Notes: generated by a model from the letters alone, not told the origin. A stretch of 63,248 bases of DNA from an uncultured virus (IMG/VR IMGVR_UViG_3300034684_000231) (IMGVR_UViG_3300034684_000231); one strand, 5' to 3'. Counted from the stretch's first letter, positions 1 through 28,399 are shown. Program-made: numbers and translations.

Positions 1-1338
1 TGCTATTTTTGTAATTAACTTATCTACATCAGGCATTTTTCCAGTTTCCACCATTTCTTGCTTAGCAGATATTAGAGTTTCCTATACAGCAGCAGCGGAT
101 TCTGCAATCTTTTTAAATGGTCTTGGTAATTTTGGTTTGTTCTTTAATAGCGCAGATACAAAGCTTTTGTATGGCTACACAAAAGGAGAAGTAGTATTTT
201 CAATATTCAGTTCTTTGCTTGCAAATCTTTCAAATAGCGAACTTAATATTTGAGATTCATCGATGAATTTGTTGACATCAAACAACGACATTAATGCCTC
301 TTTAGAATATGTATCTCCGTAAAAAGCTGTGAATATATACATGAATTTGTGCAAATCTTTTATGTATTCTTTTAAGTATTCATTAGCTTCTAATCCTTCG
401 TTTATATTGTCTGCGATAGTATCAACTCCGTGGAGTATTAAACCTAAAATTGATACCATAATATAGGCAAATAACATTTGAACTAATCCTTCAAGCACAG
501 CACTCATTGGATCTGGGTTCTTTGTAATATTCCTAAAGAAATCCCCGGTTGCGTTCCATAAAACGTACATATTAGCATATGTGGCTTCTAAAACATCTAA
601 TGTCGTGACTGTATCATCAAGAAATTTATAAATTGACTCTTTGTTGTCCTTTAACATTTTAATCAGAGGAAGATTGTTATATTGACTTGTCCACGTATTG
701 ATTGTAGTTTCTACATAATCTTCAAATCGTTTATAACTTTCTTCGTTGGAATAATTATTAAAGATTTGAGAATAGTAATTCTTGTATGCAGTAATGTAAA
801 AGCCCCAAAAAGAAATATATTTAATTAAACAACAAGACGGATTTGAGAATATTACATCTAACAACGCATCAGCGGTTTTGTCTAAATTGTTAGCTAACCT
901 TTTCAGGCCTTCTTGTACCGCATTTTGTGCATCTGTTTTTAATTTGTTTACTACTGAATTTTCATTATCTGCAGATGTTGTTGATTTTTGTTGTGCTTCC
1001 GGACTAATAATTTCATATTTAGATATAGTATCTGTAAGTTCATTCACTAATACAACTTTGTCTTCGGTGTAATGAACTGCATATGCAAGATCTATAACAG
1101 AGCTTAAAGTGTTTTTGTGCTCTGACTCTAAAGACAACATCTAGTTATTTGCGCTGTTGATAATGTATCCTACAGCATTTAATACCTCTGGATATGCATA
1201 CTACACGTGAGGATCCATTATATCTGAAAATGCACTATATTTTGCAAACATGGATTGTCCACTGTTAATATAGAAAACTTTCTATTTGCCTTGCTTTTTA
1301 GCGATTTCTAAACATTGTTTAATGTCTCTTGAGGCCAT
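1..1338 (-). CDS. Late/structural hypothetical protein, TAG-recoded, runs off the window end
   Basis: ATG at 1338 after GGCGGTGA. The frame contains ORF 175..1140 and is interrupted only by TAG codons down to position 1. Confidence 0.75.
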
Positions 1339-1350
1339 TTAATCACCGCC

Positions 1351-2505
1351 TTATTTAAGAATGTTGCCAAGTGTTCGTTTGATGTCTGTTTCAGAATAAT
1401 ATTTTCTGCCATATCTGTTATATCCAAGCTATACAACAGCAAGCATCTTACGTTGTGTAATTGACAATTTGTTACTTGATACAGTCTTTTTGCCACTCAT
1501 TACTTGATCAAGAAAATAAGGAGTTGAATCTGTTCCTAGTGTTAGGCCCTTTGGAATCCTAAAGAATGAACACATTAATTCATATTCCCTTACAGCAAAG
1601 AACCATACTATATGTTCCCATACTGTAATGAGTGGTATCCACTTGAATGGATACCAACTAAAGTTAAATCCCCAAAACGAAAAACTAAATCCTATATTCC
1701 TAATTTTGCCTAATATCCAGTTCATAATTTGTTCAAACGGCAATATAGTCCATGAACCAAAGATCCTAATGATATCAAGTTTTGCTTCAAAGTTCATTAA
1801 TAATTTCCAAAATAATATTTGGAACCAATCAACATTGAATACACAATCTAGAGATGGAGCTTCAACCGGCTTTACATTTGCAAGTTTTACGCCGGTTGAC
1901 TTTTCCTATACGCGAATCTATTTTAATCCTTGTTTAACGCTCTTAGTATTTCCAGCATGTCTAGTTATATCTTTTTTAAATTGTCTAAATGTACCGTTAT
2001 ATTCACGGTACTAATTAATTACATCAGACGTGGTTACGTCTGGTTGTTCTTCAGCTAAATTTAAATTTGTTGCGAGCCAAACGCCATCTTTATTTTTTAC
2101 CCACGCCTATGTACCATCTGTGGACGGGAATGCTAAGCCGAACTGAGTTGGAATAGGTTTAAGCTCAAATCCGCTTAGCACCTATTCTCGGGGTGGAAGT
2201 TGAGATTTGTAAACATCTATGGCATACATTACATCTTTTGCCTTCACATACGGATCGGTATCATCGTCGCCTATGATTTCTCTAAATTGAAGCAATCTTT
2301 CTTTTAAGTTTACATCAACATTTGCATCTGTTATTGGTTTGTCTTTAACAGATTCAATCTATGCTTTCTAATATTCTTTTAATTTATTCATGTCATATTC
2401 TAATTGCAAGTCTTCTAATGTTTTCTATTGCCGTTTAGTTTCGTGTTTCTGAATAGTTTGTTGCTCAAAAGTCTATTGCCGTGATTTTAATTTGATAAAT
2501 TTCAT
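1351..2505 (-). CDS. Hypothetical late protein, 384 aa with TAG read-through
   Basis: ATG at 2505 after AGGTGA; several in-frame TAGs; includes ORF 1429..1797; ends TAA at 1351. Confidence 0.75.
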
Positions 2506-2511
2506 TCATAA

Positions 2512-4230
2512 TCACCTGCCCCAGCGGTAAAGTTTGTTAATAAGTTGATGTCTGTTAATACTACTATTTCCATTTACACCTCTAATGGTGTTAGATGTAA
2601 CAGGAGCTAACACGTCATTATTAGGATTCTATACTATGCCAATGGAATTAACTTTCGGCTATGCAAGCTCTTCTTTGATAAGATACATGCCAAATAAAGC
2701 AAGCATCATCTATTCAAGAGTGTGTACATTGCCCTTGGAGTATTTAACGCTTCCGTTTTCAAGTACTTTTTCAACCACATAAGAACGCATCTGTCCTATA
2801 AGTTTGCTTTTAATATCTTCTGATTTAGGAAGTATAAGCCTACCGTTTTCAAGCATACGTTTAGCGTTTGAAACCATAAAGTCTTTTGCAGGCACTTTTT
2901 GATATGTGCCTAAAATTGGATCGAATACTTCTATCGTGGAGCCAAAATGAATAGTTTCTAACGTGTTTAGAAATGCTTCGTTGTTGTTTTGTACTCCCCA
3001 ATGTCTAAGGGCTTGGATCTGCGTCATACCAAAACCTTCGTCCATGACTATCTTTCTTGGTTTGTATAATTCATAAAGCTCTATAATTTTATTTACCTAA
3101 ACTATTTGAGTAAACTCAGATGGAGGAACTATTACTATATTCGATATTCTGTGTTTGTTGTGATGTGGTTCATAACGAACTATTACTATGTGAACCCCCT
3201 ATATAGATTCATTCCAGTCTATACCAAATGTGTAAATGCTAGGCGGAGGTGGCATATGATCAAATTCATAATCTTCTAGTGCCATGTCTATTTGCTCGTT
3301 TGGAAACACACCAGATTCTTGCAGCGTAAATTCTGCGAGAACTTCTCTTTCATACTGTTCTTTTGACATATTACGCTTAAATTCTTCGTCTGTTTCTGGA
3401 TCGTATGTTTCTAAGTCGTGATATCTTCTATGCATTTCTGCATACTAAGGATCGTGACACCATTGATAGAAGTAGCTCCTGTGTCCAGATGGAGTTGAAG
3501 ACTAAATGAGTTGCGTATCACTTGAAGTAGCAATCAATGGGTAAATGGCCGCAAACTAATTTTCTGATATAAAGTCCATCTCATCAAGAATCAAAAGATC
3601 TGCAGACTGAGACCTAACACTAGTTCCATCTTTGTCACCTGTTGTAATACCTCTAATAGTAGACCCGTTTGTAAATTGAAATTCCATATTAGGGCTTTTC
3701 TTGTACAGAGTACCATCGTTTGAACCCCGTTTGACAACAGAATGGATTAATATGTCACTGTTGATAATCATTTCATTCATTTTGTCGAACAGTTCTTTAA
3801 CTTGCGATTCACGTGGTGCTACAACTCTTATCCTTGCTTTTGCATGTACGAACTAATACCACAAAGCATACATGGCCATAGCGTGTGATTTACCAGCACG
3901 CCTCTATATTCTTAATACTTTTCTTGGTGACGTACACGAAAGAAATTCTTTCTGGAATTGACGAGGGTTTATCTTTAATATGTATTTAACAAAGAAATAT
4001 GGATACTGCTATGCAAGTTTAATGATATCGTCTGGTTTCTTTGGTTCAATATCAAATAAACCAGCTGGTATAGGATTACATTTAACTTTCCAGTTTAATT
4101 GTTTGCCTAATACGTGATTTACAACGCAGTTTACACACGCGGTATCAGGTTCATAGTCTATATCTAGTACACGTTTTGCAAACTTAACCTATTTATCATA
4201 CGATTCAAATTTGTCAACCCATTTAACCAT
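2512..4230 (-). CDS. terL: Terminase large subunit, 572 aa with TAG read-through
   Basis: One frame joins ORFs 3556..3780, 3199..3435 and 2710..3045. Motifs: PRQFQ, Walker A VLRI*RRAGKS, VVAPRESQ, Walker B LLILDEMD, coupling LI*SSTPSG, REVLAEF, nuclease FGIDWN. SD GGAGGG; TGA stop. Confidence 0.92.
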
Positions 4231-4258
4231 GTAATATTTCCCTCCTTGTTTCTATTTT

Positions 4259-4268
4259 GTTAATTAAC
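4259..4268. promoter_or_regulatory. GTTAATTAAC palindrome, candidate late promoter element
   Basis: Lies between the divergent terL and 4296 genes; the same motif recurs before other TAG-containing operons. Confidence 0.45.
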
Positions 4269-4295
4269 ACACGAAGTTTGAGGAGGTGTATATAA

Positions 4296-4874
4296 ATGCT
4301 GCCAGAAAGAGCAAGGGAAGCACAAAGATAGAGCTTGCCTGAACGAGTTGTAAAAAAGCTTGGTAGAAATGTTTTAGCGGAACTTGAAGATCACGAAGAA
4401 TTTGATAAAGGCCAACTTTAGACTCTTGCGCTTGTATGTAAGGGTAAAGACAAATGTCCATACGGCACAGATTGTCCTGTATCAAAACCGCCAGTTAGCG
4501 AGCGTTGTCCTATGGAAATTTACTATTAGGAGAAGTGGTTTGCCGAATACTGCGAGTCTTACAACATTGATCCTGTTGACAAATCGCAGGCTTCTCTTGT
4601 TGTAAGTTTGATATCAGTTGAAATTCAGCTTATGAGATAGCAGTCTATTATTGCAAAAGAAGGATTTGAGCAAATGGTTGTAACTGAATCAGAAGATGGA
4701 AGGAAAAAGTATGATAAGAAGCTTCACAATGTGCTTCAGCTTATTGATCAATTGGAAAAGCGTAAGGCTACAATAATTAAAGAGATACGAAACTCTGTTT
4801 CAACAAAACAAACAAATTAGATAGTCGGAGATATAGCACAAATACTTTCAATGGCTAAAAAATCCGGGGAGTAA
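4296..4874 (+). CDS. Cys-cluster protein, 192 aa with 5 TAGs; possible terminase small subunit
   Basis: SD GGAGG, ATG at 4296, TAA at 4874. Contains CKGKDKCPYGTDCP..ERCPME then a helical region; divergent from terL. Function inferred from position only. Confidence 0.6.
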
Positions 4875-4889
4875 TTCCCCGAATTATTT

Positions 4890-7800
4890 TTATAGCCATT
4901 TTGTTGCTCTTTCTTTTAACATCTGAAGTTCATCAAATAATTCGTCATGTCTGTTTCCTCTTACCGACATTATCTCTGCCATTGTATATCCATATGTTCC
5001 GTATTTTGTTATAATAGCTCTCCTTTGTTGAAATACTTCTGGGCCTATTAAGATGTATGGTAATAAGTTAATCATGTCACCGTCGTCGTCTCCAGCAATC
5101 TATTCTGCTACATGCTTTGGCACATCTATTGTATTATGTCTAGAAAAACCTACTATTCTAATGTGTGGTAAGTGTCCTATAATTGGATGCCTTTGCATGT
5201 AACCCCACATTTCTCCATATTTTGTAGCAAAATCAAATGCTTTGTATGGCGGCTCTAACACACGAAGTCCTCTGTTTAATTCTTCAATTGCTAGTCCGCC
5301 AGCACGTTCTGAGTATTGTAGAAAACCTCGATACTTGTCTATTAACTGCATTATCTATCTTTTCTGGAACGCTCGTGCGTTTTTATATTTTTGAATTTTT
5401 AGTATAGACAAATCTTCTAAGATAGGTACATTCTACTAAACAAGCTCGTATATTTCTCGCTCGTTTGCATATTTGCCCTATTCTGGATTATAGTAAATTA
5501 CATAATCTTTTAACTTATTATTCCAGTCTATAATTAGCGCGCTTCTAGACCATCTTTCAAAGAGGTTGTTCACTTTCATTTCTTTTTGTCCACTAACATA
5601 CTATTCGATTTCTGATATTTCGCTTGCAGGTAAATGTGATTTTAATTCGTCAAGAGTAATAACGTTACTTTTAACCTAAGAAGCTATGAGCTGTTGTAAC
5701 TATCGTTTCGGCATTCTTGTGCCACCTAAATCTTCTCTTGCTGTTGCATGCAAACCGCTAATGCCGATACCGTGCCTTTTCGAAAGTGTGCGTGCAAACG
5801 CTCTTGTCTGTATGTTGCCAAGTGTCATCATTCTACTGGAATAGAATTTAAACGACTGCATTGCGCGCTATGCATCACCACGCGCAACGTTTTGTAAGAG
5901 AGAATGAATTCCCTAGAACATATTCATGAACGTTTCTGCCTCAAGTGATAAGTGTAGTTGTGCGCCCGTGTTGTTAAACAACCTTGGAACATACATTTTA
6001 GCCATTTGAATGCCCGCGTCCCCAGCAGAAAGTGTAATTATATTACCTTGTTCTTTTGCTATCTGCGTTAATACTTTTGTCATTCTATATGTGCTCCATT
6101 TGTTAAGACCAATTTGGCCTGCCTAACCTGTAAGTGTTTCAAAGTATTGTGTTGCAACCGCTGGAATTAATATTTCTTCACCTGCAAATTGCTATAACCT
6201 TTTTGCTTGAGATTCAGTAATTGAGAATACTATGTTTCCCGTATCTAACTGAGTTCTTGGGTTTGTAAGTATGTCAGATAATACATCTAACAGATCCTAT
6301 GTTCTTTGAAGTCTGGCATCTTGTATTCTTGCAGATCTAAACTATTGTGCCATTTGTCTTAATCTTACTACGTTGTCTCGCACTACTTCTTGAGATTTAA
6401 TTGAACTAAATACATTTACAAATGGCTGTAATCCTTGCAAAAGCCCTATATTTCGCTATGAATGTATGCCTGCTCCTTTATTAATCTATTTTCTTGCGGC
6501 ATAATTTGGTTTAACATAACCTTTTTCTATCAAAGCCTATATTTGACCTGCCTATGCACCTTCTGATAGAGAGGTGGTAGTATTAGTAAGCATTATCGTC
6601 TTTTCAATATCATTGTCACTTGCGTCTGAACTTAACAATAAACTAAGCAAACCTGTTTGTTTGAATAAAGCAAGCTGTGGCAAAACCTGTGCAGATTGGT
6701 TTGAAATTTCAGTCCAATATGCTTGGTGGCTCTTCCCTGTATAGGCATATACTTTGTGAAAAATCAAAGGCATTGTAATATTTGTTCTTGCCCATTTGTC
6801 TCCTTCTTTTATATAAACAGTGCCTTTCATTTTGTTCAAGAATACATCTGACATTTTCTCTGTTACATTTTTTGTGAATTCATTCCACGCAACTGGTTTT
6901 GTAACGTCTATACCTTCAGCTATTTCAGGCAAGAGTTTGTTGAACATATCCTCGCCGTAGATATATTTATAAGCTCTGAGAGAACCTTGTAAAAATTCTG
7001 CTATTTTGTTCTTACGTTTTCCTTGAGTGTTTATGAATGCACCAACTGGAATTAATTGTCCGTTGATTTCGACAGCAATTTCTCTGTCAAAACGGAATGT
7101 TACCATACCTTTTGATCTTGCAATACCAGTTATTTTCAACTGTTCTGGTATATCTGCAAATGTAACTTTACCAAATTTATCTCTTGTCTAAATTTTAAGA
7201 GATTCAGCCAATTGTTTCTACATAAAATATGCGTCTCCAACCATTGTTAAATCAGTACCAAGCACCGAGCTAAAGAAGGATATGTTTTCTTTGTCTACAA
7301 CACCCGTTGGCAATAGAAAACCTGGCATTTCTGTTGTTTCAAGAGTTTCTTCATATACACCAGGCATTTTTACTTTTAAAAGCTATGCGGCCCTTTTTTC
7401 GTTGAGTTGATACACATAATCTACTAACTCTGAAGTTTTTCTGTATGTGTGATCGATTACAAGATCCGGTGCTTTTGCACCGTATGTATTGATAACACGG
7501 ACTGCGTCAGTCTATGCGGCCACTGGGTTAAACATTTCTTGAATAGGCGTTACAGCATGTCCGTACGGCTTTAATGCAACTGTTGAACCTACTGTGTTTG
7601 GCGACGAAATAGAAATAGCATCTGTTAAACGGTGAGGAACAATTGATAGTAATACGCCTTTGTAGTTAAATTGCTGAATGCCAAGTAAGTACTCAGGAAG
7701 CTGTTCTAACTCAAAAGTTGATTTGTACTATAAGTGCGAGTAATATAACTCTTTTGTGCGTTTAAGCATTCTGTTGTATATCCATTCATACACGTTTGAT

Positions 7801-10800
7801 TCTGTAGGTGTGCTTCCTATTATTGATTTCAATCTTTGAAATTGTGAGTTACTTAATTTTCCAAGACGTTGAGCAAAGAATTCTTTAAACACGTCTTCTG
7901 TCTATTCTTTTAGATTTATTTTTTTTGCGTTTAAGAAGTTAGTTAACACGTCTTGATTCATTACATCGTGTAAAACAAAGTATAATTCTGGGTCAATTTC
8001 TTGTGCATTTCTATGCGAAAGAAACATTGCTCTTAATAAGTCAATTGATTGGAATGTTCTTCCTGTTTGGGTGTAACTGTACATTCTATTAAAGAGCATA
8101 TTTATTAAATCTCTTCTTGCTTCGTACTTAATTCCTGTTTTTGCGGTTGTGTACATCATTACTGGTAAACCTAAATTACTTGGTTTATACATCATTTCTG
8201 CATATTGTGGCGCTAAAACTCCAAGCCATGTTTTGATAGCCTACATAGCAGCTTCAGGTTGATCAAATACAGTTTCAAATGCATAGCGCGCTTGTGTTTC
8301 TGTATAAGAAAATGTTTCCCCGCTTCCAGGAGTTACAATCAAACCTCCCGATTTGCTTTCGTCAAATGAGTATATAATACCAGTTTGGTATACTTTTATA
8401 CCTTCTCCTTGCCTCATTGCATCTTCTGACATTTCTTCGAAAAATTCATCTTCTTCAAGTCCCAAGTCTTGAGCTTCTATCCTACCTTCCGCGACATTTA
8501 AACTTGTTTGTTTGTACTTTAACACCCCTTCCGCTGGCAAACCCTATGTTTCAACATATTGAAATTGTTTTTGCATAACAGGAGGAACTACCTGCGATAA
8601 ATTCATGTCAGGTGTAAGAATTCCACCCTATATTAAAGAGCGTATTTTTTGATATGCCCCGCCTTTGAGCTATTCTTCAAAATATCTTGTGGTCCTCTAC
8701 ATTCTTGTAATAGCTTGTTTTCTCGGTTCACGTATAAATCTGTATGTAGCTAAGTTTGTAAGAGATGAAATTTGTATATACGGGAACATTGTTGCTTCTG
8801 ACATTGATTTCATCTTTCTTTTAACAAGATACTGTAACTAATAATCGCTTGCATAGTTGCCTTTTATAAAATCGTCCACAACATCTTTATATGTGTCAAT
8901 GGTCAAGTTTGCCGCCATGCCATAACTAGTGTCTTGCTACGCCTTGTACTGAATCATATCTGCTAGCTAACCAAATCTAAGCTATTGTCTGTCTATATAG
9001 CGAAGCGACGATTTTTGCAAGATATCTTGGAAAGATGCAAACGTTTTTGCTTTGCTAATTGTTTTTGCAAACGTTTTGTTTTCCATCGTTTCTTGAACTA
9101 TTGCTTTCAATGTATTTTCGTCAACATATTTGTATTTCGCTCTCAATTTAAGTGTGATATATTCTGGCGTCTACATAGGTTTATCTTGTCCAGGTAAAAT
9201 AAGCTTTGGTTTTTCAACCTGTTGCTATAATTGCTGCTCTGATTCTATTGGTAATATTATTTTAGGTTTTTGCGTACTAGCTTTTGATGGTTTTGCTTTC
9301 TTGATGTTTTTTAATTCTTGTTGAACGTCGGCTACAATATTCTGTACTAATTTCATCGAACGATAATCAATGCTTGACGGTTCTATACCAAGTTGTTCCT
9401 ACAGCACATCAATAAATTGTCTTTTTTGTAATGAAGCCCAGCGTTGATACGCAATATCATCTTCCTATAAATCTGAAACTTGTTGTGCAAAATTCATATA
9501 GCGTTGAAACAATACATCTAAGTTTTGTGAAATTGCTTGTTGCCCACCGAGTGCTCTTTCAAAACCAGTTTGGAATAGTTCTGTAATACCAGAAGCAATA
9601 TACTATCTTCTCATTAATTGTTCTCCTGATGAGCCAAGAGACAAGGTTTGCCCAACATTGATGTATTTTGTTAATGTGTCGTATGCTATGAGTTCTTTAA
9701 TACTTCGTTGAATTGATTGGTTTGTGACAATTGGTTGTATATCCTCTCTCATTGATTCGTATAGAAATTTAGCAACGTTTTCTATGTTACTTACATATTT
9801 AGAGCGTAAGTCTTTAAAGAACTAATCAGCACTTGTGGTCGATTTTACACCAGTAATGAATTCCTCAGTAAAACCAAATCTATCTAATTGATCCTATTTG
9901 CGTTTAAGCAAATTTAATATTTCGCCAGTTTTAAACTGGCTTAAATCACCAGAATATAGCGCATTGTAAATAGAAGTCAATATGTTGGTTGGTTCTTGAT
10001 CAAATGGAGTATTTTGAGCAAGCGAATTAACAAGAGACTATATGATAACTTTTGTGTTAGATTTGTCAACTGTTTTCTGCGCGTCTGCTTGAAGAACAAG
10101 CTAAATATTAATAGCCTATTCTTGTTCGTATCTTCTTAACTATTCAGCTACTGATAAAGGATTATTTAAATCAGCATCTTTAAACATAGCAGACAATTCA
10201 GATTGAAAAGATGGTCCTGTTCCGGCAGGAGATTTATCTTTAACTGAAATGCCAAATATGTTAGCAAGTTGTTGCTATAACTGATCTATAGATTTTCTAC
10301 TTACAGAAGTTACAGCATATTGTTCTTGTTTGGTTAACATTTGCGTAAGCTGTTCCTATGTATCAGCAACAAATGTTCGTAATGTACTTAATAAATCTAT
10401 AGAATCAGTCATATTATTTGCTAATATTTGCTAATCATGCATTTTTGCACTGCCAACAAGCAAGCTTGCTGTATTTCTTAACTAATGAGCTAATTGAGGT
10501 GATATAGGAGCACCAGCAGGCGTGATTGATGTAGCGGCTTCTTCAAACTATTGCATTACTTTATAATAATTAAACCCTTCTATATCAAACTACACATTTT
10601 TTGCTTTTTCAAGAGCCTATTTAAACGCATAAGAGCTTAGTATGTTTTCTGGCGCTATTGATAATTGCCTTAGCCTGTTCACAAATTCATCCGTTGACAT
10701 TGAAGTTGTTAAAAATGTTTTGAATGAACTACCAAGACTTATTGAACGTATAACAAAATTTGTCAAATCAGACAAGCTTTTATTAGGATCAAGCAAAGTG

Positions 10801-11633
10801 TCAACAACTATACCAGTAACACTTTTACCCTTTAAACCTATAGTTGCTGTAAAGACATCTGCAATAGGGGCATAACCTTTTACATTCCGATTAAATTTCT
10901 CCTATTTCTTTATGAATGTTTCTAGTCCTTGTTGAGAGAATATATCTTGCATTGCAAGATCTGGGTTGTGCCTATAAAACTGTGCAATAGACTTTAATGT
11001 ATCTTGATGTTGGCCAACCCATTTTTCTACAGCTCCTGTATACTTTGTGTACTATTCACTACTTTTATCAAGAAATCTTGAGCCAAAAGTCAAAAGTCTT
11101 GATTTCAGTTCTTCCGGGATTTTATCTATATCAGCGCCTGTACGGCCATATAACGTATTAAAAAACAAAAACAAATCATTGAACTACAACAGCTTATTTG
11201 TGTCTTCGGCTGAACTAATTGAACCTAACATTTGCGCGTTAAAACTTCCCATTAACTATTCATAGGAAGTAATTGCGTCTGTTATGCCTTCTGTCGTTAT
11301 TCCAGCAGGTTTAAATACATCTTTGTATAACCGTTTAAATGGCTCAATGTTCTTTTTTGCATCTATAACGAATGAATGTATGTTGCTAATTGTTTGTAGC
11401 AACTTAGTTTGTTTTGCTTTGTCAGGTGTAATATCTGTAATGACTTGTGGTAATTGTGTTTTAAGTTGCCAAATTAAATTGTTGACTTGATCAAGATCGC
11501 CTTGTTGTGCATATGTATCTATCTTTTTGACAACAGCTCGTAAATCTTCAGGTAAGCTAAGCTTCTTTTCAGGTATTTCTAATATTTGTCCTAAAAGAGC
11601 CTAAAAAGAAGGCGCTCCTGCAAACAGCTTCAT
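4890..11633 (-). CDS. Giant (~2247 aa) virion-type two-barrel RNA polymerase polyprotein, TAG-recoded
   Basis: SD AAGGAGG, ATG at 11633. Track ORFs at 8241, 7902, 6552, 5100 and 4890 share one frame and the upstream four end in TAG. C-terminal QRHPIIG...VAE*IAGDDDGDMI catalytic motif. The frame was spot-checked, not read exhaustively. Confidence 0.82.
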
Positions 11634-11650
11634 TATTTTTGCCTCCTTTA

Positions 11651-12391
11651 TCATCCGTATATTGCAATATATGGATTTGTGCCAAACACACCCTAGTCAT
11701 TTAATATTTGCCTTGTTACCATTGCGTTTTGCAAGCTACGCATAATGATTTGCTCTTCCTATTTAGAGAATCGTTGTGAGTCTTTATACTTTGGATTAAT
11801 GCTACCAGTAATTCCCTACAAGCGTCTGTAATATCTAAGTCTTTCAGCACGCTTTTTTGATTCTATTGCCTATGTTCCAATAGCTTCTGCAATTGTTAAA
11901 CCTATACTCCACATTTGTGTTCTTTGCCACATTGACATGCCAGCAAGGATTTTTCCAGACTTGCGTGTCAATGAAACTATTTTTTTTAATTCTGCTTCTG
12001 CTACATCATCTAATGTTTCTTTAATAGTGCCCTTTAAAATTTTTTGAGGTACTTTTAAAGCTTTGTGTACATCAGTAGGATATCCGAGCCATCCCATATC
12101 TAATTGTGTTATTTTTGGTAAATGTTTCTGTAATATTGGGCGTATATGAGTGAATTTGTTTTTAAACTAAGGAGAAATGAGTTTCTCATATATAACTTTG
12201 TTTAATTTTCCAAGTCCTTTTCCAAATTGAATGTTTGGTTGTAATGGCTAAAGAGCCATCATGCTCAGAAATGATTCAACCTCATACTACCCTATCATTG
12301 ACAGTGATAGTTTAAACATCAACGAACCAAAATTTACATTACTAACCGGCTGTACTTCTTGTGTGTTTAAGTCATATATGAAGCTTGGCAT
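11651..12391 (-). CDS. Hypothetical virion/ejection-type protein, 246 aa, TAG-recoded
   Basis: SD AAGGAGG, ATG at 12391, includes ORF 11870..12097, ends TGA TAA; directly upstream of the giant RNAP gene. Confidence 0.7.
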
Positions 12392-12404
12392 TTAGGATGC
12401 CTCC

Positions 12405-13235: not shown

Positions 13236-13261
13236 TTATATACACCCCCCTAATATCTCCT

Positions 13262-13275
13262 CAGTTAATTAACTG
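13262..13275. promoter_or_regulatory. CAGTTAATTAACTG palindrome, candidate late promoter element
   Basis: Perfect 14-bp palindrome between divergent TAG-containing genes. Confidence 0.45.
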
Positions 13276-13327
13276 CGGCTGTTCTAAAATATAAACAAAA
13301 AAAGAAAATATGAAGGAGGATGGTATT

Positions 13328-13909
13328 ATGTTGATGGGATATTATACAACTTTACCAGGCTATGAATGTATATTGACTAACTACAAACAACACAGAATTA
13401 TAGGGATACCATATGAGTTTTATGAGCCTAATGGCATTGTGTTCATAGATTTTAACGACGCAGACAAAGAATGTACATTGTCATGGTATGAAATTTTACA
13501 TGCTTCAAATTTCGACAGCGTGTATTAGGAAGATGACGAAGAATTGAAAGACATAATGGAGAGTGCAATTTCAGACAGAAACAAAAGAGTGATGAAAGAT
13601 ATAGTTGCATTTTATATTGAACCAGTAGATTCTGACGTTAAAGCAATTGAATATATGTTGGAACATAGCAGATATTATGAACTGAGGTATTCTGAAATCC
13701 CATCTATGGTTCTTGATAGTTTTGTCCCGTTGTTTATAGACGATAACGATAAAATTCTTGCTATAGGTTTTGGAACCACTGCTATACATACGACAGATAC
13801 GACAAAAAATATGTTGGAAATGGTAGCGTTTAACGATCGTGTAATCATGAAAGAAGTGCTAATTATTCCTATTAAGAAATCAGCTATTGCGCTAAACCAT
13901 AACATATAA
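13328..13909 (+). CDS. Hypothetical protein, 193 aa, one internal TAG
   Basis: SD AGGAGG, ATG at 13328. ORFs 13310..13528 and 13544..13909 are in frame across the TAG at 13526. Confidence 0.65.
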
Positions 13910-13912
13910 GAA

Positions 13913-13937
13913 ACCGGGCATTTAAGCCCGGTTTTTT
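13913..13937. terminator. Bidirectional intrinsic terminator
   Basis: AACCGGGC-atttaa-GCCCGGTT hairpin with A/T tails between convergent genes. Confidence 0.7.
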
Positions 13938-15115
13938 CACAGTCTCTTAATCTACTCTTCCGCAAGTTTTGATCTAAACGTTTTGTTCAGTACTATGTTA
14001 GTGGATACATCAGATTCATACATCTTGTCGGCGACATAGATAAGTCCGTTTGTCTCGTTTTCTCTGTAATAAGTGTCAATTTGTTCAATGTCGCCAAGCA
14101 AGATAATCTTAGAACCGTAATCAATACGTGTGATAAATGTTTTTAATTCATGCGGATGAGTATTTTGTGCTTCGTCTATAATCACAATACTATTCTTAAT
14201 TGAACGTCCCCTGATGTTCTAGAATGATTGAATTTCAAGCTGCCACTCTTTGCCTTCCAACTAATTTTCGATCATTTGTTTGCCTTCATCACCAAGCAAG
14301 TATTCTATGTTGTCTATAATACCAGAAAACTGTTTGATTGTTTTCTCTTCAAGTGTGCCTGGTAAGTAACCATATCTATCTTTGCCACCGAGTTGTACAG
14401 GAGGTACAGCTATTATGAGCTTTTCATACGAGCCTGATTGAACAAGATGGATAGCACTCTAAATTGAAAGGAATGTTTTACCAGATCCTGCGGGGCCTAT
14501 ACCAACAACCATAGGAAGGCGTATATCGAAGATCTAATCAAGGAGCATAGTTTGTTCCATACAAAGAGGTTCTATCTTTTTGTCCCTTATTTTAAAGGAA
14601 ATCCTATCTATATATTCTATCTTGCCATTTACATACTTTCCTATTCGCGAGTTAATCCCGTCTGTAACTTTAACGTATGTAAACTCAGGCATATCAAGAT
14701 TGATTTCCATGCGATCTCCGCTGAGATCTTTATCTACTTGTACTGTTTTAATTGCTTCAAGGATATTTTCGGGACGTGTTTCTGTAAGAAGCTCAACCTT
14801 AACGTCGGCAACTTTCTATCTCATCTATAACTAAGTGTCAGATGTGTACAGTGTACCTTTATATATTTTTGCTACTTCTAATACAGATAGATCAGTTGTT
14901 TCGGCCATATCGTCAAATATAATTATTGCTCGTTTGTCAATCAGATCCATAATATCTCTTATCTACTTGATCTACCTATGTTTGGTTCTGTCTACTTCTT
15001 TCAACCTATCAAGCTCTGACAAAACGGAGAAAGTCGTGGCAATCTGTGTTTCGGAAGGAACGTTTTTGTGTGCTTGCAAAATGAAAGCTGATGTATCCAT
15101 TACCAAATACGACAT
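13937..15115 (-). CDS. phoH: PIN-PhoH (PhoH2-type) protein, 392 aa, TAG-recoded
   Basis: N-terminal PIN motif YLVMDTSAF; GIGPAGSGKTFLSI*SAI; GYLPGTLEEK; SF*NIRGRS; IIDEAQN; LLGDIEQID; RSKLAEE*IKRL then TGA. Confidence 0.92.
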
Positions 15116-15226
15116 ACAAACACCTCCATCGGCAAAGTCATTAGTAAATTAACTCCCCCCTGTTAATTAAATGGTAGATTGGTTAATTACCATCTTTACA
15201 CCTTCAAGAAAGGAGGGTAGATACCC

Positions 15227-15523: not shown

Positions 15524-15673
15524 TTTGTGCAACTCTTGCCACAAGTTGCAAACATTGTACAGTTATCCAAAATCTTTACCTCTATAATTTAAGTGCAAAC
15601 AACAAAAAATGTCTTTGAGAAACTTTTACAGGTATTAAACCGTTCCGGCGAGGGCGGAATACCTATAAAGCGA

Positions 15674-15749
15674 GCAGGTGTATCTCAATTGGTAGAGCAG
15701 GTGATTTGTAATCATCAGGTTGGAGGGTCGAGTCCTCTAGCCTGCTCCA
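15674..15749 (+). tRNA. tRNA-Thr(TGT), degenerate
   Basis: Cloverleaf with GGTGA-TTTGTAA-TCATC anticodon arm and 3' CCA. Defects: G7:A66 mismatch, D-stem mismatch, T-loop GTCGA instead of TTCGA. Confidence 0.8.
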
Positions 15750-15750
15750 G

Positions 15751-15826
15751 GGGGGCGTAGCTCAATTGGGAGAGCTCCGGTCTCTAAAATCGGTGGTTGC
15801 GGGTTCGAGTCCCGTCGCCTCCACCA
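15751..15826 (+). tRNA. Amber-decoding tRNA (anticodon CTA) with tRNA-Ala identity elements
   Basis: Acceptor stem GGGGGCG/CGCCTCC gives G1:C72, G2:C71, G3:U70; discriminator A73; encoded CCA. Anticodon arm CCGGT-CTCTAAA-ATCGG with CTA at 15784-15786; canonical D and T arms. Confidence 0.95.
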
Positions 15827-16091
15827 GATCGGCAAGGTCATACAGTTTTTTATACATCTTTATTACCTCAACACATTCTAGACTTGTTCATTTAATCACC
15901 TTCTACCCGGGTAATTATACCCGGGTATTTTGTTAATTTAGATTAGACTGTGCCTTTTGCGGCCCAATATAATTTGTCTTGTCCGCGGTGACCAAGAGAG
16001 GCTTTAAGCCTCTCTTTTTTTGTTGCACAGTTATAATCTTGCTATATATGTACAATTTGCAATGAAATAACAAACAAGGAGGGGGTTTTGC

Positions 16092-18139: not shown

Positions 18140-18300
18140 AGCTACTTGTTGTAATTGTATATTTCTTATACAATTAATTGTTTAATGATTATGCATTTAA
18201 TTGCTCACTCTCTATACATTTAATTGTTCAATAGTTATATAATTGATTGTTCAAGCTTTATACAATTAATTGTTCAACTTTTATACATTTAATTGTATAA
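18140..18300. repeat. About 7 copies of a 23-bp-period TACA(A/T)TTAATTGT repeat
   Basis: TAATTG-like cores at 18152, 18175, 18198, 18221, 18244, 18267, 18290. Confidence 0.85.
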
Positions 18301-18320
18301 ACTAGCAGGAGGTGGCTAGA

Positions 18321-18665
18321 GTGAAAAAAGTATACGGAGTACATATAGTTTAGGAGTTATACGACGTAGATGCAGACCTATTAAACGATGGAGAATTTCT
18401 GGAAGAACTGCTCCTCGAATAGGCAGAAGAGTAGAATTAGACTATCGTCTACTCTCATTGGCATCCATTTGAACCGCACGGAGTGACATAGTTCGTAGTA
18501 TTAGCAGAGTCTCACATAAGTATTCACACATGGCCCGAGGATGGATATTAGAGTCTTGATGTATATACATGCGGAGATCACACGATGCCAGAAGAGGCAG
18601 TTGATTATATTATCAGCAGGTTGGGTTGCAAATAGAGTATTAAAACCATCAAACGAGGCGTATAA
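18321..18665 (+). CDS. speD: S-adenosylmethionine decarboxylase proenzyme, 114 aa, 7 TAGs
   Basis: SD AGGAGG, GTG start. [44 protein letters not shown], including the E|SH autocleavage site. Missing from the ORF track. Confidence 0.95.
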
Positions 18666-20069: not shown

Positions 20070-20179
20070 ATTGAACCAGGTTCTGTTACAATTTGACAAT
20101 TCGGAAACAAAGTGTTACTATTGTAATGAGAAAAGTGTGTATAGGTGTGTATGTGTATATACACAAGGAGGGGTTAAAT

Positions 20180-20443
20180 ATGTCCAAAACAAGACACAAC
20201 ATAACAATAAGCGAAGAAAAATGGGCAATGTTATCATTATTAAAGAAAGCTTTAGATAAAAGTTATAGCGAACTTATAGAAGAAGCAATAAGTGAATATC
20301 TAGAGAATAGAAAAATAAATAAAGTTTATCTACAACTTATGTCAGCTCCATTTTGTGACAAAGAAGAAAACGAAGCACTTACACGCGAGCTTGATTCTTT
20401 AACAGAAGAAGATTTGGAAGTGGTAAAGGTTGAAGAATTATAA
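20180..20443 (+). CDS. Putative antitoxin (RHH/CopG-like N terminus, acidic tail)
   Basis: MSKTRHNITISEE...SYSELIEEAISEY; overlaps the start of the RelE-family gene. Confidence 0.75.
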   Translation: MSKTRHNITISEEKWAMLSLLKKALDKSYSELIEEAISEYLENRKINKVYLQLMSAPFCDKEENEALTRELDSLTEEDLEVVKVEEL

Positions 20444-20714
20444 ACTTGAATGGACAAAGAAAGCATATAAAGAATTCCAACAATTAGACCAAGAAAATCA
20501 GCAAAGAATACGCATAGAACTTCGGAACCTGGTTGATTACTATTGCGGAAACAATGAAGTAAAAATACCAGATGTAAAAAGATTAAAAGGCAAATATAAC
20601 GGCTTATTTAGACTTAGAGTTGGTAAGTATAGAGTTATCTTTAAGACAGAGTTGCACAAATTAGTTTTGCTTATAATCTCTATTGTTAAACGTGGAGATG
20701 TATATAAAAATTAG
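20430..20714 (+). CDS. relE: RelE/ParE-family type II toxin
   Basis: YKLEWTKKAYKEF, DVKRLKG, FRLRVGKYRVIF, KRGDVY; ends in TAG. Confidence 0.9.
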   Translation: MKNYKLEWTKKAYKEFQQLDQENQQRIRIELRNLVDYYCGNNEVKIPDVKRLKGKYNGLFRLRVGKYRVIFKTELHKLVLLIISIVKRGDVYKN

Positions 20715-20820
20715 AATTATATATATCAACACTATCGACCTCTTTGAAACCAGCACAACCCCCATAACTTTTAAGCATGGATGGTGTTGCGTTTAGCGGG
20801 CATAAAGCCCGCTTTTTTAT

Positions 20821-22695: not shown

Positions 22696-22735
22696 TTTTG
22701 TGGTATAATATGTGTGTCGTTAGGAGGTGGTATTA

Positions 22736-23582: not shown

Positions 23583-23612
23583 TGACTTTCGAAACACAAA
23601 AATGTTAGAATA
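23583..23612 (+). promoter_or_regulatory. Sigma70-type promoter upstream of parA
   Basis: TTGACT and TGtTAGAAT boxes, about 18 bp apart. Confidence 0.55.
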
Positions 23613-23641
23613 GTTTCAGCACAATTTAGGAGGTGTATATA

Positions 23642-25096: not shown

Positions 25097-25112
25097 AAAA
25101 GGAGAGGAGATT

Positions 25113-26421: not shown

Positions 26422-26442
26422 AAAAGGAGGACAGCAACAAAA

Positions 26443-26811: not shown

Positions 26812-26838
26812 AAAAACAACCCTGCATAACGCAGGGCA

Positions 26839-27390
26839 TTATCGAACAAGTAAAGTAAATATTTTATCAATTATCAAATATACCAATCCACCGCCACCAA
26901 TTATTGATATCCAAAAACGTGTTTTGTCTAATGTCTGTTTCTCTTGTTTGATCTTATAAGTCTCCATCATTGCATTGTATCCATCTTTCATGTTTTGAAT
27001 TAGCTATTCGACTTGCTTTTTGTTCATTTCCAAGGCCTATTTCAATGTCTCATCAACCATTTGTTGATAATCCCTTTTTAACATGTTGATAAAGTCATGT
27101 CTCCATCCATTATCCAAGTGTGACTGCAAATCTTCAATTCTATTAAACAGCTTCTTTATATCTTGGGATAATTCGTGCATTCTATTTGTTAGAGCTTGTA
27201 TTTTCATTTCCTGTTTGTAATTCTTATCATCTACTTCGCTTATTAACTATTGCAAAGCATTGATTGCATCTTCTGTTACTTGATAGTACTTACTAAATTG
27301 TTCTTGTAGCTTTTCTACCGTAACACGAAGCGTTTCTATATGTTTCTATTGTTCTTCTGCATCTGTAAGTTTAACTTCGTGTGTATCCAT
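26839..27390 (-). CDS. Coiled-coil protein with C-terminal TM helix (XhlA/holin-like architecture), 183 aa, 4 TAGs
   Basis: SD AGGAGG, ATG at 27390; ends FWISIIGGGGLVYLIIDKIFTLLVR then TAA. Missing from the ORF track. Confidence 0.7.
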
Positions 27391-27403
27391 TGCCAATCCT
27401 CCT

Positions 27404-28075
27404 TTATATCAATTTAGCTTTTGGATGTTCTTTCAAATCTTGTGGAGAAATAAATTCAAATGGTTGATCAAACTCAATTCCACCTTCGTGAAGCATTCTC
27501 TAAACAAGTTCGGAACACATCATGTTTTTTGGATTATTATATGCAAGTAAATCTTGCACTTTTTCTTCGAGATCTTCATAACCTACAAATTTACCAAATG
27601 CACCAACAATTTCAGCTATTGAGTTTAAGCCTAAAGAAGCGTAGTCATATGGTAGATTCCAATACTTATCTACAGCTTTAAGCATTCGTTCTGCATCTAC
27701 GCCTTCAAATCTTAGCACATCAACCATCTAATAGTGTGAAGGAGGATACTTTAGCAATTTTACTCCTGACAGCCATGCTGCTAATACCCATCCTTTACCC
27801 AAATACAATTCTGCGTGTATATATTCCTGCTGGGCCAAGCGCACTACCTGTTTTGCAACTGCAGAGGAAACAAATTCTGCCGTGGGAGGAACAAGAGAAA
27901 GAATTGCATTCTATATAGTTTCTCCGAGGATCTTTTTCATGTAATTAATCATTCCTTCTAAAAACAGCTCTGCTTTAAACTCTATCTAGTTCTTGAGGGC
28001 TTTGTAAGGTTCGGAATAATAATAGGTTGGCAAAAGTAAAACATCACCAGGTTGAAGTTTGTCAATTTTTACCAT
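27404..28075 (-). CDS. Permuted papain-like NlpC/P60 (YiiX/YaeF-type) hydrolase, 223 aa, TAG-recoded
   Basis: LQPGDVLL, YIHAELYLG, LPYDY, MMCSELV*RM, ISPQDL, with His before Cys. Confidence 0.85.
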
Positions 28076-28081
28076 ACCTTA

Positions 28082-28399
28082 TCACCTCTTTTGTCCGTAG
28101 ATTACTAACACTTCGTATGTTCTTTCAAGTCTTACCTTCACTACTTTAACCCATTTTATTATTTTGTAATCAGGGAACTCTTGGCTGAACTCATCTAACA
28201 ACGCCTGTGGGTCTACAATCTCATCTTTGTCTGCATAGTAGACTAGAAAGATATCCACGCCCTCATCAGACTGATACTGCTCATATACCTACTACGGCTG
28301 AGCTTCAAATGTAGAACCGCCTACAACGTTAAATGTTACATACCCAATAACCGAGGCAAGAATTACGACAAACACCACTCTCCAATTAAAATATTCCAT
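28082..28399 (-). CDS. Signal/TM-anchored hypothetical protein, 105 aa, tandem TAG TAG
   Basis: SD AGGAGG, ATG at 28399; hydrophobic N terminus; AQP**VYE; ends TGA TAA. Confidence 0.7.

What the first reader, a model, noticed from the sequence alone, without database searches (positions are those of the whole stretch)
1..28399. Amber codon TAG is reassigned to alanine, an apparently undescribed phage genetic code
Seen: late genes are broken only by in-frame TAG, and those TAGs fall at family-conserved Ala positions. SpeD: HIV*ELY (HLVAEFY), E*AEE*N*TIV (QAAYESGATIV), GY*SLDVYTCG (GYASIDVYTCG). PhoH: LLD*IFD, GKTFLSI*SAI (GKTLLALAAAL), F*NIRGRS (LAYMRGR), RSKLAEE*. Terminase: RI*RRAGKS, ALWY*F, LI*SSTP. 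NlpC/P60: CSELV*R (CSELVAR). SLT at 47423: ESSWKPD*R (ESxxNPxA). Gln fits these small, buried sites poorly. Known: described phage amber recoding is TAG=Gln (code 15); I know UAG=Ala only from some green-algal mitochondria. Inference: a new phage code, independently supported by the Ala-identity CUA tRNA at 15751. The reference motifs are recalled from memory, not aligned.
Basis: partly seen in the sequence, partly recalled or inferred. Interest (0 to 1): 0.98.

Follow-up and report, generated by a model that had tools for sequence, protein, structure and literature searches.

The report
Phage reads TAG stop as alanine
This uncultured phage uses the stop codon TAG as an alanine codon in its packaging, lysis-type and some metabolic genes and carries its own alanine-type tRNA to read it, whereas published recoded phages and the public protein catalogues read TAG as glutamine.

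Summary
Fourteen genes hold 128 in-frame TAG codons; 27 rightward genes hold none. Reading TAG as sense raises coding density in 1-15200 from 0.485 to 0.906.

The tRNA at 15751-15826 has anticodon CUA and an alanine-type acceptor end: G3:U70, A73, G2:C71, G4:C69.

I ran a Codetta-like test with profiles built only from standard-code homologues of SpeD, PhoH and the large terminase. Over 20 well-occupied TAG columns alanine is best, serine trails by 20.6 nats and glutamine by 39.4. The same profiles decode 41 of 46 sense codons correctly.

Fourteen metagenome contigs with the same PhoH-tRNA module were tested; three of their four groups also give alanine.

Public catalogues translate these proteins with Gln at every TAG.

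My paper searches found no phage TAG=Ala code. One 2025 preprint shows a phage-derived tRNA(CUA) with the same acceptor end inserting alanine in E. coli extract.

This scan noted TAG=Ala once before, on other DNA (e1-6146486).

No peptide evidence exists, the host is unknown, and 'late gene' timing is inferred. This is a new variant of a known kind.

The parts
15751..15826 (+). Suppressor tRNA, anticodon CUA, with alanine-type acceptor end (G1:C72, G2:C71, G3:U70, G4:C69, A73, encoded CCA; GGGA in the D loop)
   Evidence: ARAGORN finds it. Rfam tRNA scores 66.4 bits with no non-standard pair flagged. The sequence was read. Aligned with annotated phage tRNA-Ala and tRNA-Trp. In the family alignment 99.6% of cells are paired and 11 of 21 pairs show compensatory change.
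15674..15746 (+). Second tRNA, anticodon UGU (Thr) read off the Rfam alignment, 4 bases upstream of the suppressor
   Evidence: Rfam tRNA scores 46.7 bits with four non-standard pairs flagged. ARAGORN did not find it.
2512..4230 (-). Large terminase subunit, 572 aa, 12 in-frame TAG
   Evidence: Pfam Terminase_6N 5.3e-10; phrog_2 1.2e-36. TAG columns 126, 243, 344, 378 and 507 are mostly Ala in standard-code homologues.
13937..15115 (-). PhoH-like ATPase, 392 aa, 10 in-frame TAG, next to the tRNA
   Evidence: Pfam PhoH 3.4e-41. In the PDB 3b85 alignment 3 of 4 covered TAG sites are A. The same PhoH-tRNA arrangement occurs in 14 metagenome loci.
18270..18665 (+). S-adenosylmethionine decarboxylase (SpeD type), 131 aa, 8 in-frame TAG (7 inside the domain)
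   Evidence: Pfam AdoMet_dc 4.3e-36. PDB alignments. 150 representatives were tabulated.
4890..11654 (-). Giant protein, 2254 aa, 56 in-frame TAG, function unknown
   Evidence: ORF. No Pfam or PHROG match. Only 2 relatives in the large protein catalogue.
1..1338 (-). Gene running off the window start, 5 in-frame TAG, unknown function
1351..2505 (-). 384-aa gene, 10 in-frame TAG, unknown function
4296..4874 (+). 192-aa gene, 5 in-frame TAG, unknown function
11651..12391 (-). 246-aa gene, 7 in-frame TAG; syntenic homologue (33% identity) in relatives L095, L109, L133, L134, L138
12405..13235 (-). 276-aa gene, 3 in-frame TAG
13310..13909 (+). 199-aa gene, 1 in-frame TAG; homologue (28-29% identity) in the same relatives
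26839..28408 (-). Three minus-strand genes (185, 223 and 108 aa) with 4, 4 and 2 in-frame TAG. The middle one holds the CSELVxR motif; its NlpC/P60 label is not supported.
47423..47911 (+). SLT-domain lytic transglycosylase, 162 aa, 2 in-frame TAG
   Evidence: Pfam SLT 1.2e-13. TAG 45 aligns with the A of ESSFNPYA in 3 of 3 MltC chains.
34275..36114 (+). Two TAG-free genes that end at TAG under table 11 (34901 and 36108), each with a TAA or TGA 1-2 codons further on
62565..63089 (+). SLT-domain gene ending TAG-TGA (tandem stops)

Best explanation
The window is part of an uncultured tailed phage that has turned TAG into an alanine codon for a subset of its genes.

Shown:
- TAG is sense in at least 14 genes.
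- The residue that evolution expects at those sites is alanine.
- The phage encodes one tRNA with anticodon CUA whose acceptor end carries the alanine marks (G3:U70, A73).

Inferred:
- The host's alanyl-tRNA synthetase does not read the anticodon, so it charges this tRNA with alanine.
- The charged tRNA outcompetes the host's release factor 1 at UAG, so full-length terminase, PhoH, SpeD, the giant protein and the lysis-type enzymes are made.
- Genes without TAG (ArdA, RNase H, reverse transcriptase, HTH regulators and others) can be translated by the unmodified host. Genes with TAG wait for the tRNA, as proposed for TAG=Gln phages.

TAG supplies 128 of 463 (28%) of the alanine codons in the recoded genes. 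It ranks second after GCA.
For: Codon level.
- 128 in-frame TAG in 14 genes against 0 in 27 other genes.
- Coding density in 1-15200 rises from 0.485 to 0.906.
- GCN codons are only 3.6-4.5% of codons in the most TAG-rich genes. Adding TAG restores 6.1-9.8%.

Meaning of TAG.
- Profiles came from 150 SpeD, 108 PhoH and 31 TerL standard-code homologues.
- Over 20 TAG columns with at least 50% occupancy, Ala is best, Ser -20.6 nats and Gln -39.4 nats. Over all 30 columns Ala leads Ser by 23.3 nats.
- Ala is the commonest residue in 11 of 20 columns and Gln in 0 of 20.
- Control: 41 of 46 sense codons with at least 5 columns are decoded correctly. CAA and CAG give Q; GCA and GCT give A. TAG gives 1.03 nats per column, like GCA at 1.06.
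- In 81 TerL loci (L005-L085) the codon opposite window TAG 378 is GCN in 77 of 81, opposite TAG 507 in 75 of 80, and opposite TAG 344 in 49 of 81.
- PDB alignments agree.

tRNA.
- Anticodon CUA.
- The acceptor end is identical in pairs 1-4 and base 73 to annotated phage tRNA-Ala genes. It differs from tRNA-Trp, which has A1:U72, G3:C70 and G73.
- AlaRS of all three domains relies mainly on G3:U70 (abstract of PMC6451123, seen in the listing).
- tRNA(CUA)-151 of a 2025 preprint, from a phage metagenome, has a GGGG...CUCC-A acceptor end (supplementary table). It put alanine at UAG in E. coli extract by intact-protein mass spectrometry. The other 28 of 29 tested tRNAs gave Gln (section 7).

Relatives.
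- 14 metagenome loci have PhoH beside an Ala-type CUA tRNA.
- PhoH TAG columns give Ala in group A (15 columns; Ser -8.7, Gln -21.5), group B (23 columns; Ser -16.1, Gln -36.5) and group D (8 columns; Val -6.0, Gln -12.0).
- The union of 33 columns gives Ala, with Ser -19.5 and Gln -44.0.
- Within the recoded clade, where a relative is not TAG it is most often Ala.
Against: - There is no peptide, aminoacylation or expression evidence, and the host is unknown.
- In 9 of 20 well-occupied columns another residue is commonest: G twice, L twice, and N, Y, T, D, S once each.
- The profiles have low effective sequence numbers (1.6-3.4), so emissions lean on priors.
- In the poorly conserved giant protein, the only distant relative (P0318, itself probably recoded) has at the 56 window TAG sites: Q 25, S 6, E 4, L 3, A 3, R 3 and others. 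Ala does not stand out there.
- In codon exchanges with relatives Ser is as frequent as Ala in one direction: S 12 against A 11. In the other direction it is A 24 against S 17.
- PhoH column 224 is Gln in 92 of 108 standard-code homologue rows (the PhoH alignment has 111), yet carries TAG in groups C and D. Group C has only this one usable column.
- The 5' half and anticodon arm of the tRNA resemble tRNA-Trp.
- G3:U70 in the 54 metagenome tRNAs was imposed by my search pattern, so it says nothing about conservation.
- The more distant recoded relative L005 favours Ala by only 3.7 nats over Ser.
Confidence: 0.88

Rival explanations
1. TAG is read as glutamine (code 15), as in all published recoded phages and as the public protein catalogues translate these genes. 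On this view the alanine-like acceptor stem is incidental and the tRNA is charged by GlnRS through U35.
For: The catalogue entries for this phage and its close relatives carry Q at every TAG: P0001 10 of 10, P0121 12 of 12, P0317 56 of 56. In the 2025 preprint 28 of 29 tested phage tRNA(CUA) inserted Gln in E. coli extract. PhoH column 224, Gln in standard-code homologues, carries TAG in two related groups.
Against: The Q's come from the translation table used by the gene caller; they are not observations. Gln is 39.4 nats worse than Ala over 20 columns and is the commonest residue in 0 of 20, while the true Gln codons CAA and CAG are decoded as Gln by the same profiles. From recall, the tRNA has G1:C72, G3:U70 and A73, which are not the Gln marks. 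The one tRNA in the preprint with this acceptor end gave Ala.
Confidence: 0.04
2. TAG is read as another small residue (serine or glycine), or ambiguously as a mix of small residues.
For: Ser is second in every test: -20.6 nats in the window, -19.5 in relatives, -3.7 in L005. Ser is as frequent as Ala among exchange partners in one direction. Two conserved columns are Gly (SpeD 74, TerL 109).
Against: A 20-nat gap is large. The tRNA has a short variable region of 5 bases, whereas bacterial tRNA-Ser has a long arm (recalled). The tRNA carries G3:U70. TCG (Ser) is one mutational step from TAG on the way to GCG (Ala), which would by itself enrich Ser among exchange partners (inference).
Confidence: 0.05
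3. The TAGs are not translated: the genes are pseudogenes, the assembly is wrong, or the stops are bypassed.
For: None beyond the formal possibility.
Against: 128 TAGs and no in-frame TAA or TGA interrupt 14 long frames. The frames keep family-level similarity across the TAGs (PhoH 3.4e-41, AdoMet_dc 4.3e-36). TAG sites are shared with diverged relatives: 21 shared sites and P0318 with 25 of 56. A cognate tRNA is encoded.
Confidence: 0.01

Closest known systems
Alternatively coded ('code 15') phages: crAss-like, Lak and other clades with TAG read as Gln (Borges et al., bioRxiv 10.1101/2021.08.26.457843, passages read; Peters et al., PMC9523058, abstract seen in the listing)
   Same: In-frame TAG is concentrated in some genes and absent from others. 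The phage encodes its own tRNA(CUA). The host apparently uses the standard code. The phage depends on a host synthetase.
   Different: The amino acid is Ala, not Gln. The tRNA carries Ala marks, and the synthetase hijacked would be AlaRS. [quoted passage not shown]
tRNA(CUA)-151 of Seki et al. 2025 (bioRxiv 10.1101/2025.10.30.685624 = PMC12636597; sections 5 and 7, discussion passages and supplementary table read)
   Same: It is a phage-metagenome tRNA with anticodon CUA and a GGGG...CUCC-A acceptor end (G3:U70, A73). It inserted alanine at UAG in E. coli extract.
   Different: The tRNA body is different, with an odd D arm. A search of the library table for an 8-base stretch of this window's D arm found it in no CUA entry. 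That paper gives no genome evidence that any phage uses TAG=Ala and calls the biological relevance unclear. Here the genome evidence is supplied but no biochemistry.
UAG as a sense codon in chlorophycean mitochondria (Hayashi-Ishimaru et al. 1996; seen only as reference 33 of PMC12636597, content recalled)
   Same: UAG is read as Ala in some lineages.
   Different: That is an organelle code. It is not a virus overriding a standard-code host with a single tRNA gene.
Laboratory amber suppressors built on tRNA-Ala or by transplanting G3:U70 (Hou and Schimmel; McClain and Foss, 1988; recalled, not read here)
   Same: The mechanism is the same: AlaRS ignores the anticodon, so a CUA anticodon on a G3:U70 tRNA inserts Ala at UAG.
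   Different: Those are engineered constructs. This is a natural phage gene with a genome adapted to it.
   Same: The same reassignment, with an Ala-type suppressor tRNA.
   Different: It is another genome. No look-alike of this window's tRNA or PhoH is in the scan's index. The cause it proposed, avoidance of the GC step, does not hold here: GpC observed/expected is 1.27-1.32.

Membership tests
Stop-codon-recoded phages with their own suppressor tRNA | A stop codon occurs in frame in conserved genes, and coding density rises when it is read as sense | tested here: met
   128 in-frame TAG in 14 genes. Density rises from 0.485 to 0.906 in 1-15200.
Stop-codon-recoded phages with their own suppressor tRNA | A phage-encoded tRNA whose anticodon matches the recoded stop | tested here: met
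   tRNA(CUA) at 15751-15826
Stop-codon-recoded phages with their own suppressor tRNA | Part of the genome stays compatible with the standard code | tested here: met
   27 plus-strand genes have 0 internal in-frame TAG in 7308 codons. Three of them end at TAG with a second stop 0-2 codons on.
Genetic code 15 (TAG = Gln) | TAG columns favour glutamine | tested here: not met
   Gln is -39.4 nats relative to Ala and is the commonest residue in 0 of 20 columns. No NCBI table in the Biopython copy has TAG = Ala.
tRNA of alanine identity | G3:U70 wobble pair in the acceptor stem | tested here: met
   Acceptor stem GGGGGCG/CGCCUCC
tRNA of alanine identity | A73 discriminator, G2:C71, G4:C69 and G20 (minor E. 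coli determinants, recalled) | tested here: met
   Read from the sequence and from the alignment with annotated phage tRNA-Ala
tRNA of alanine identity | Charged with alanine by AlaRS | not testable with these tools
   Only by analogy: tRNA(CUA)-151, with the same acceptor end, gave Ala in E. coli extract.
tRNA of alanine identity | Overall sequence nearest to tRNA-Ala genes | tested here: inconclusive
   The best full-length phage matches are Sup-CTA tRNAs of Aeromonas phages (82.9%) and tRNA-Ala of Vibrio and Cronobacter phages (77-82%). tRNA-Trp genes match bases 2-69 at 84%.
   No Pfam match at E<=0.01, no PDB match at E<=1, only phrog_1128.

The most novel reading that the evidence does not exclude
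TAG=Ala is the working code of a broad, multi-lineage set of uncultured phages, of which this window is one member. Several observations point that way.
- A single scan found 54 metagenome loci with Ala-type CUA tRNAs. One of them, L099, is not a tRNA.
- Of the 32 loci of at least 5 kb, 23 gain at least 0.10 coding density when TAG is sense.
- Three of four PhoH-tRNA lineages decode TAG as Ala.
- A lineage with different genes (ThyX) has Ala at 4 of 10 TAG sites.

If so, phage amber recoding is polyphyletic in meaning. Alanine may be the easiest capture because AlaRS is blind to the anticodon. Public catalogues that apply code 15 would then mistranslate about 2% of residues in these phages.
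Probability: 0.65. Interest if true: 0.9.

Novelty: new variant of a known kind. Interest (0 to 1): 0.85.

Why it matters
- It adds a new meaning (Ala) to the small list of natural stop-codon reassignments outside organelles. It also shows that phage amber recoding is not always Gln.
- It gives a genome context to the one phage tRNA(CUA) that was found to insert Ala in vitro and whose relevance was called unclear.
- It has a practical cost. Gene callers that switch to code 15 write Gln at every TAG. That affects 128 sites in 14 genes here and every catalogue entry I looked at, which distorts alignments, profiles and structure predictions for this clade.
- It offers a natural amber suppressor tRNA that needs no cognate synthetase of its own, for a host whose AlaRS accepts it.
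- It supports the idea that synthetases blind to the anticodon are the easy route to code change.

Tried and rejected
- Whole-genome access: none is held for this window.
- GpC avoidance as the cause of TAG=Ala, a lead from e1-6146486: rejected here, since GpC observed/expected is 1.27-1.32.
- A bias in the base after TAG that might weaken termination: none seen. A 42, G 36, T 29, C 21, close to the overall first-base usage.
- Close relatives in IMG/VR using PhoH alone: none.
- Cultured relatives: the best is Moorella phage MTATph1 TerL at 30.8% identity.
- Giant protein: only 2 catalogue relatives, so it added little to the column test.
- MFE folding of the tRNA does not give the cloverleaf and is not better than shuffles (z -1.70). 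The Rfam covariance model and the family covariation are the relevant evidence.
- Promoter and terminator scan around the tRNAs: a weak promoter-like site at 15536-15563 and a terminator-like hairpin at 15904-15927. Promoter-like sites are not above chance (5 found against 3.3 +/- 2.0).
- A strict filter asking that TAG-sense density beat both TAA-sense and TGA-sense by 0.05 passes only 8 of 32 loci. Opening TAA inflates ORFs in AT-rich DNA, so I do not trust that filter.
- A look at the giant protein's C-terminal part in the ESM Atlas was not possible, so its function stays open.
- Literature: searches found no paper describing a phage TAG=Ala code. The library lacks most subscription journals.

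Full report
**What is there.** The 63-kb window is phage DNA of about 33% G+C. Under table 11 the leftward genes of 1-15115 fall into fragments. With TAG open they become nine long genes with 109 in-frame TAGs. Coding density of 1-15200 is 0.485 under table 11 and 0.906 with TAG as sense. It is 0.655 with TGA as sense and 0.689 with TAA as sense.

Other TAG-bearing genes are:
- SpeD at 18270-18665, with 8 TAGs.
- Three leftward genes at 26839-28408, with 10 TAGs.
- An SLT transglycosylase at 47423-47911, with 2 TAGs.

Counting 14 confident genes, with SpeD taken from codon 22 because the first TAG may lie before the true start, there are 128 in-frame TAGs in 5748 codons. By contrast, 27 rightward genes of 28.5-63 kb have no internal in-frame TAG in 7308 codons, although TAG occurs 354 times in their other frames. 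These genes include ArdA, RNase H, a reverse transcriptase, HTH regulators, a Ro60-like protein and a MoxR-like ATPase. Three of the 27 end at TAG, each with a TAA or TGA 0-2 codons further on. So the phage keeps one gene set readable by a standard-code host and another that needs TAG to be read through.

**The decoder.** ARAGORN finds one tRNA, anticodon CUA, at 15751-15826. Rfam's tRNA model scores it at 66.4 bits with no non-standard pair flagged. It also finds a second tRNA (UGU, Thr) 4 bases upstream that ARAGORN missed.

The acceptor stem is GGGGGCG paired with CGCCUCC, followed by A and an encoded CCA. That gives G1:C72, G2:C71, G3:U70, G4:C69 and A73, with GGGA in the D loop. Aligned with annotated phage tRNAs, this end is the same as in tRNA-Ala of Vibrio phage Pylo. 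It differs from tRNA-Trp of Caulobacter phage RB23, which has A1:U72, G3:C70 and G73.

By overall similarity the picture is mixed. The nearest full-length matches are 'Sup-CTA' tRNAs of Aeromonas T5-like phages (82.9%; they also have G3:U70 and A73) and phage tRNA-Ala genes. tRNA-Trp genes match bases 2-69 at 84%.

That AlaRS relies mainly on G3:U70 in all three domains is stated in the abstract of PMC6451123 (listing). That it ignores the anticodon is textbook knowledge (recalled).

**What TAG means.** I repeated the logic of Codetta by hand. Homologues came from three searches:
- PhoH: the best 120 of 4900 hits.
- TerL: 46 hits.
- SpeD: the best 150 of 6699 representatives.

The close relatives in the catalogue carry Q at every window TAG site. 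This includes P0001, which is the window's own protein: 10 of 10 sites. P0121 has 12 of 12 and P0317 has 56 of 56. These Q's come from a code-15 translation; they are not data.

I therefore dropped P0001-P0012, P0121-P0132, P0141, P0143 and P0144, which have Q at TAG columns or a Q fraction of at least 0.058. I built profiles only from the remaining 108 PhoH, 31 TerL and 150 SpeD proteins, without the query.

Of 30 TAG columns, 20 are occupied in at least half of the rows. Over these 20:
- Ala is best, Ser is -20.6 nats, Val -23.1, Gly -29.4 and Gln -39.4.
- Ala is the commonest residue in 11 of 20 columns and Gln in none.

As a control, the same profiles decode 41 of 46 sense codons that have at least 5 columns. 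CAA and CAG come out as Gln, GCA and GCT as Ala. The five misses are ATC, ATG, CAT, TGG and TTC. The signal per TAG column (1.03 nats) equals that of GCA (1.06).

Further support:
- In 81 TerL loci fetched as DNA, the codon opposite window TAG 378 is GCN in 77 of 81, opposite TAG 507 in 75 of 80, and opposite TAG 344 in 49 of 81. Sites 109, 225 and 262 are mostly Gly, Asp and Arg in these distant relatives.
- Solved structures agree. SpeD 2iii has A, A, A, L, G, A, R at 7 sites. PhoH 3b85 has A, A, L, A at 4 sites. MltC has A at the ESSxxPxA site in 3 of 3 chains.
- Codon usage fits. GCN is 3.6-4.5% of codons in the TAG-rich genes and 6.1-9.8% once TAG is added. TAG is 128 of 463 putative Ala codons, second after GCA at 175.

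**Relatives.** A pattern for an Ala-type CUA tRNA, which fixes GGGG...CUCC-A and so G3:U70, found 2 IMG/VR loci and 54 metagenome loci. One of the 54, L099, is not a tRNA.

Twenty-four distinct tRNAs fold into the cloverleaf in 99.6% of cells, with compensatory change at 11 of 21 pairs. The covariation score is 0.527 against 0.159 in shuffles (0 of 500 as high) and at most 0.152 when partners are slid. Pairs 1-4 are invariant by construction of the pattern.

Fourteen loci have PhoH beside the tRNA, as in the window. Some also share the next genes and the giant protein. Their PhoH TAG columns, scored with the same standard-code profile, give:
- Group A: Ala (15 columns; Ser -8.7, Gln -21.5).
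- Group B: Ala (23 columns; Ser -16.1, Gln -36.5).
- Group D: Ala (8 columns; Val -6.0, Gln -12.0).
- Group C: only one usable column, which favours Gln.
- Union of 33 columns: Ala, with Ser -19.5 and Gln -44.0.

Of the 32 loci of at least 5 kb, 23 gain at least 0.10 coding density with TAG as sense. Only 8 also beat TAA-sense and TGA-sense by 0.05, a filter that AT-rich DNA defeats.

A lineage with other genes, L098, has a ThyX with 10 TAGs. Against T. maritima ThyX these sites are A at 4 and V, I, E, N, W, G at the rest. A more distant recoded relative, L005, has 21 TAGs in TerL and favours Ala by only 3.7 nats over Ser.

**Weak points.**
- There is no protein-level or charging evidence, and the host is unknown.
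- Nine of 20 columns are not Ala-dominated.
- In the giant protein the only distant relative has Ala at just 3 of the 56 window TAG sites.
- Ser rivals Ala among exchange partners in one direction. This may reflect TCG lying on the mutational path between TAG and GCG (inference).
- 'Late genes' is an inference from gene content. PhoH and SpeD are not classical late genes.
- None of the 60 ORFs scanned against Pfam matched a synthetase or release-factor family, so nothing else in the window is known to help the code change.

**Known or new.** Borges et al. aligned terminases with X at stops. They wrote that they only observe TAG to Gln and TGA to Trp in phages whose code differs from the host's (passages). 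Peters et al. validated TAG=Gln by proteomics (abstract in the listing). No NCBI table in the Biopython copy gives TAG=Ala. Seven searches of the paper library found no phage TAG=Ala code.

The nearest precedent is Seki et al. 2025. Of 29 phage tRNA(CUA) tested in E. coli extract, 28 gave Gln and one, number 151, gave Ala. The authors called this an unusual reassignment of unclear biological relevance (sections 5 and 7 and discussion passages). Its sequence in their table has the same GGGG...CUCC-A acceptor end. Among the hits that one search printed, it is the only CUA entry ending in CUCCA after a GGGG 5' end. An 8-base stretch of this window's D arm occurs in no CUA entry of the library. 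As prior cases of UAG to Ala they cite only chlorophycean mitochondria and allo-tRNA experiments (reference list).

Its proposed cause, GpC avoidance, does not apply here.

**Verdict.** TAG is most likely read as alanine through a phage tRNA(CUA) charged by the host AlaRS (confidence 0.88). It is a new variant of a known kind: stop-codon recoding in phages. Clade-level support suggests that it is not a one-off.

Noticed in passing
window 2512-4230, 4890-11654, 13937-15115; proteins P0001, P0121, P0317: The large public protein catalogue holds these proteins translated with Gln at every TAG (10 of 10, 12 of 12 and 56 of 56 sites). Relatives show raised Q (7-10%) and lowered A (2.6-4.5%). This looks like a systematic mistranslation if TAG is Ala.
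   Followed up: partly
window 15674-15746 (+): A second tRNA (anticodon UGU, Thr) sits 4 bases upstream of the suppressor. Only Rfam finds it (46.7 bits, four non-standard pairs flagged); ARAGORN does not.
   Followed up: no
window 4890-11654 (-): A 2254-aa protein with 56 TAGs has no Pfam or PHROG match and only two catalogue relatives. An AGDDDGD stretch near the C end recalls, from memory only, the metal-binding motif of two-barrel RNA polymerases such as virion RNA polymerases. This is untested.
   Followed up: partly
L001, L086 (Aeromonas phages Akh-2, AhSzw-1 and relatives): Cultured T5-like Aeromonas phages carry, inside a 33-tRNA array and right before tRNA-Ala(UGC), a CUA tRNA with G3:U70 and A73. 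Records annotate it variously as tRNA-TERM, tRNA-Pyl, tRNA-OTHER or not at all. Whether these phages use in-frame TAG was not checked.
   Followed up: no
L087 and L135 (same tRNA; contigs of 135 kb and 236 kb, G+C about 0.30): A cluster of tRNA-Ala(UGC), an Ala-type tRNA(CUA) 86% identical to the window's, and a tmRNA (tag ANEYIPLAA). It lies next to a 1262-aa ORF with 23 in-frame TAGs. The TerL of that record has no stops inside.
   Followed up: partly
L089, L112, L122, L125, L137, L140 (G+C 0.24): Contigs with the Ala-type tRNA(CUA). The two that were scanned for tRNAs (L089, L125) also carry two or three tRNA(UUA) genes. Coding density rises from 0.49-0.65 to 0.87-0.92 when TAA is read as sense, which may mean TAA recoding or double recoding. 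AT-rich DNA inflates this measure.
   Followed up: no
L108, L114, L115, L131, L132: Two tandem Ala-type tRNA(CUA) genes differ only in acceptor pairs 5-7 and one or two other bases, inside a tRNA array. Coding density rises from 0.46-0.48 to 0.93-0.94 with TAG as sense. A 1092-aa fibronectin-repeat protein carries 36 TAGs.
   Followed up: partly
L005 (9.3-kb contig of a bacterial MAG): A phage fragment binned into a MAG. Every ORF of at least 260 aa carries 6-21 in-frame TAGs. Its TerL is 38% identical to the window's, and Ala is favoured only weakly (3.7 nats over Ser).
   Followed up: partly
window 52148-53170, 60683-62221, 44905-45405, 20093-20747: The TAG-free part encodes a reverse transcriptase (RVT_1, 9.6e-25), a Ro60/TROVE-like protein with a vWA domain, ArdA antirestriction, and an RHH plus ParE-like pair. 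The ParE-like ORF has one TAG 11 codons before its end.
   Followed up: no
window 42667-43173 (+): An HNH endonuclease (phrog_119, 2.4e-30) in the otherwise TAG-free region. It has 3 TAGs, two of them in the last 10 codons, so it may simply end at TAG.
   Followed up: no
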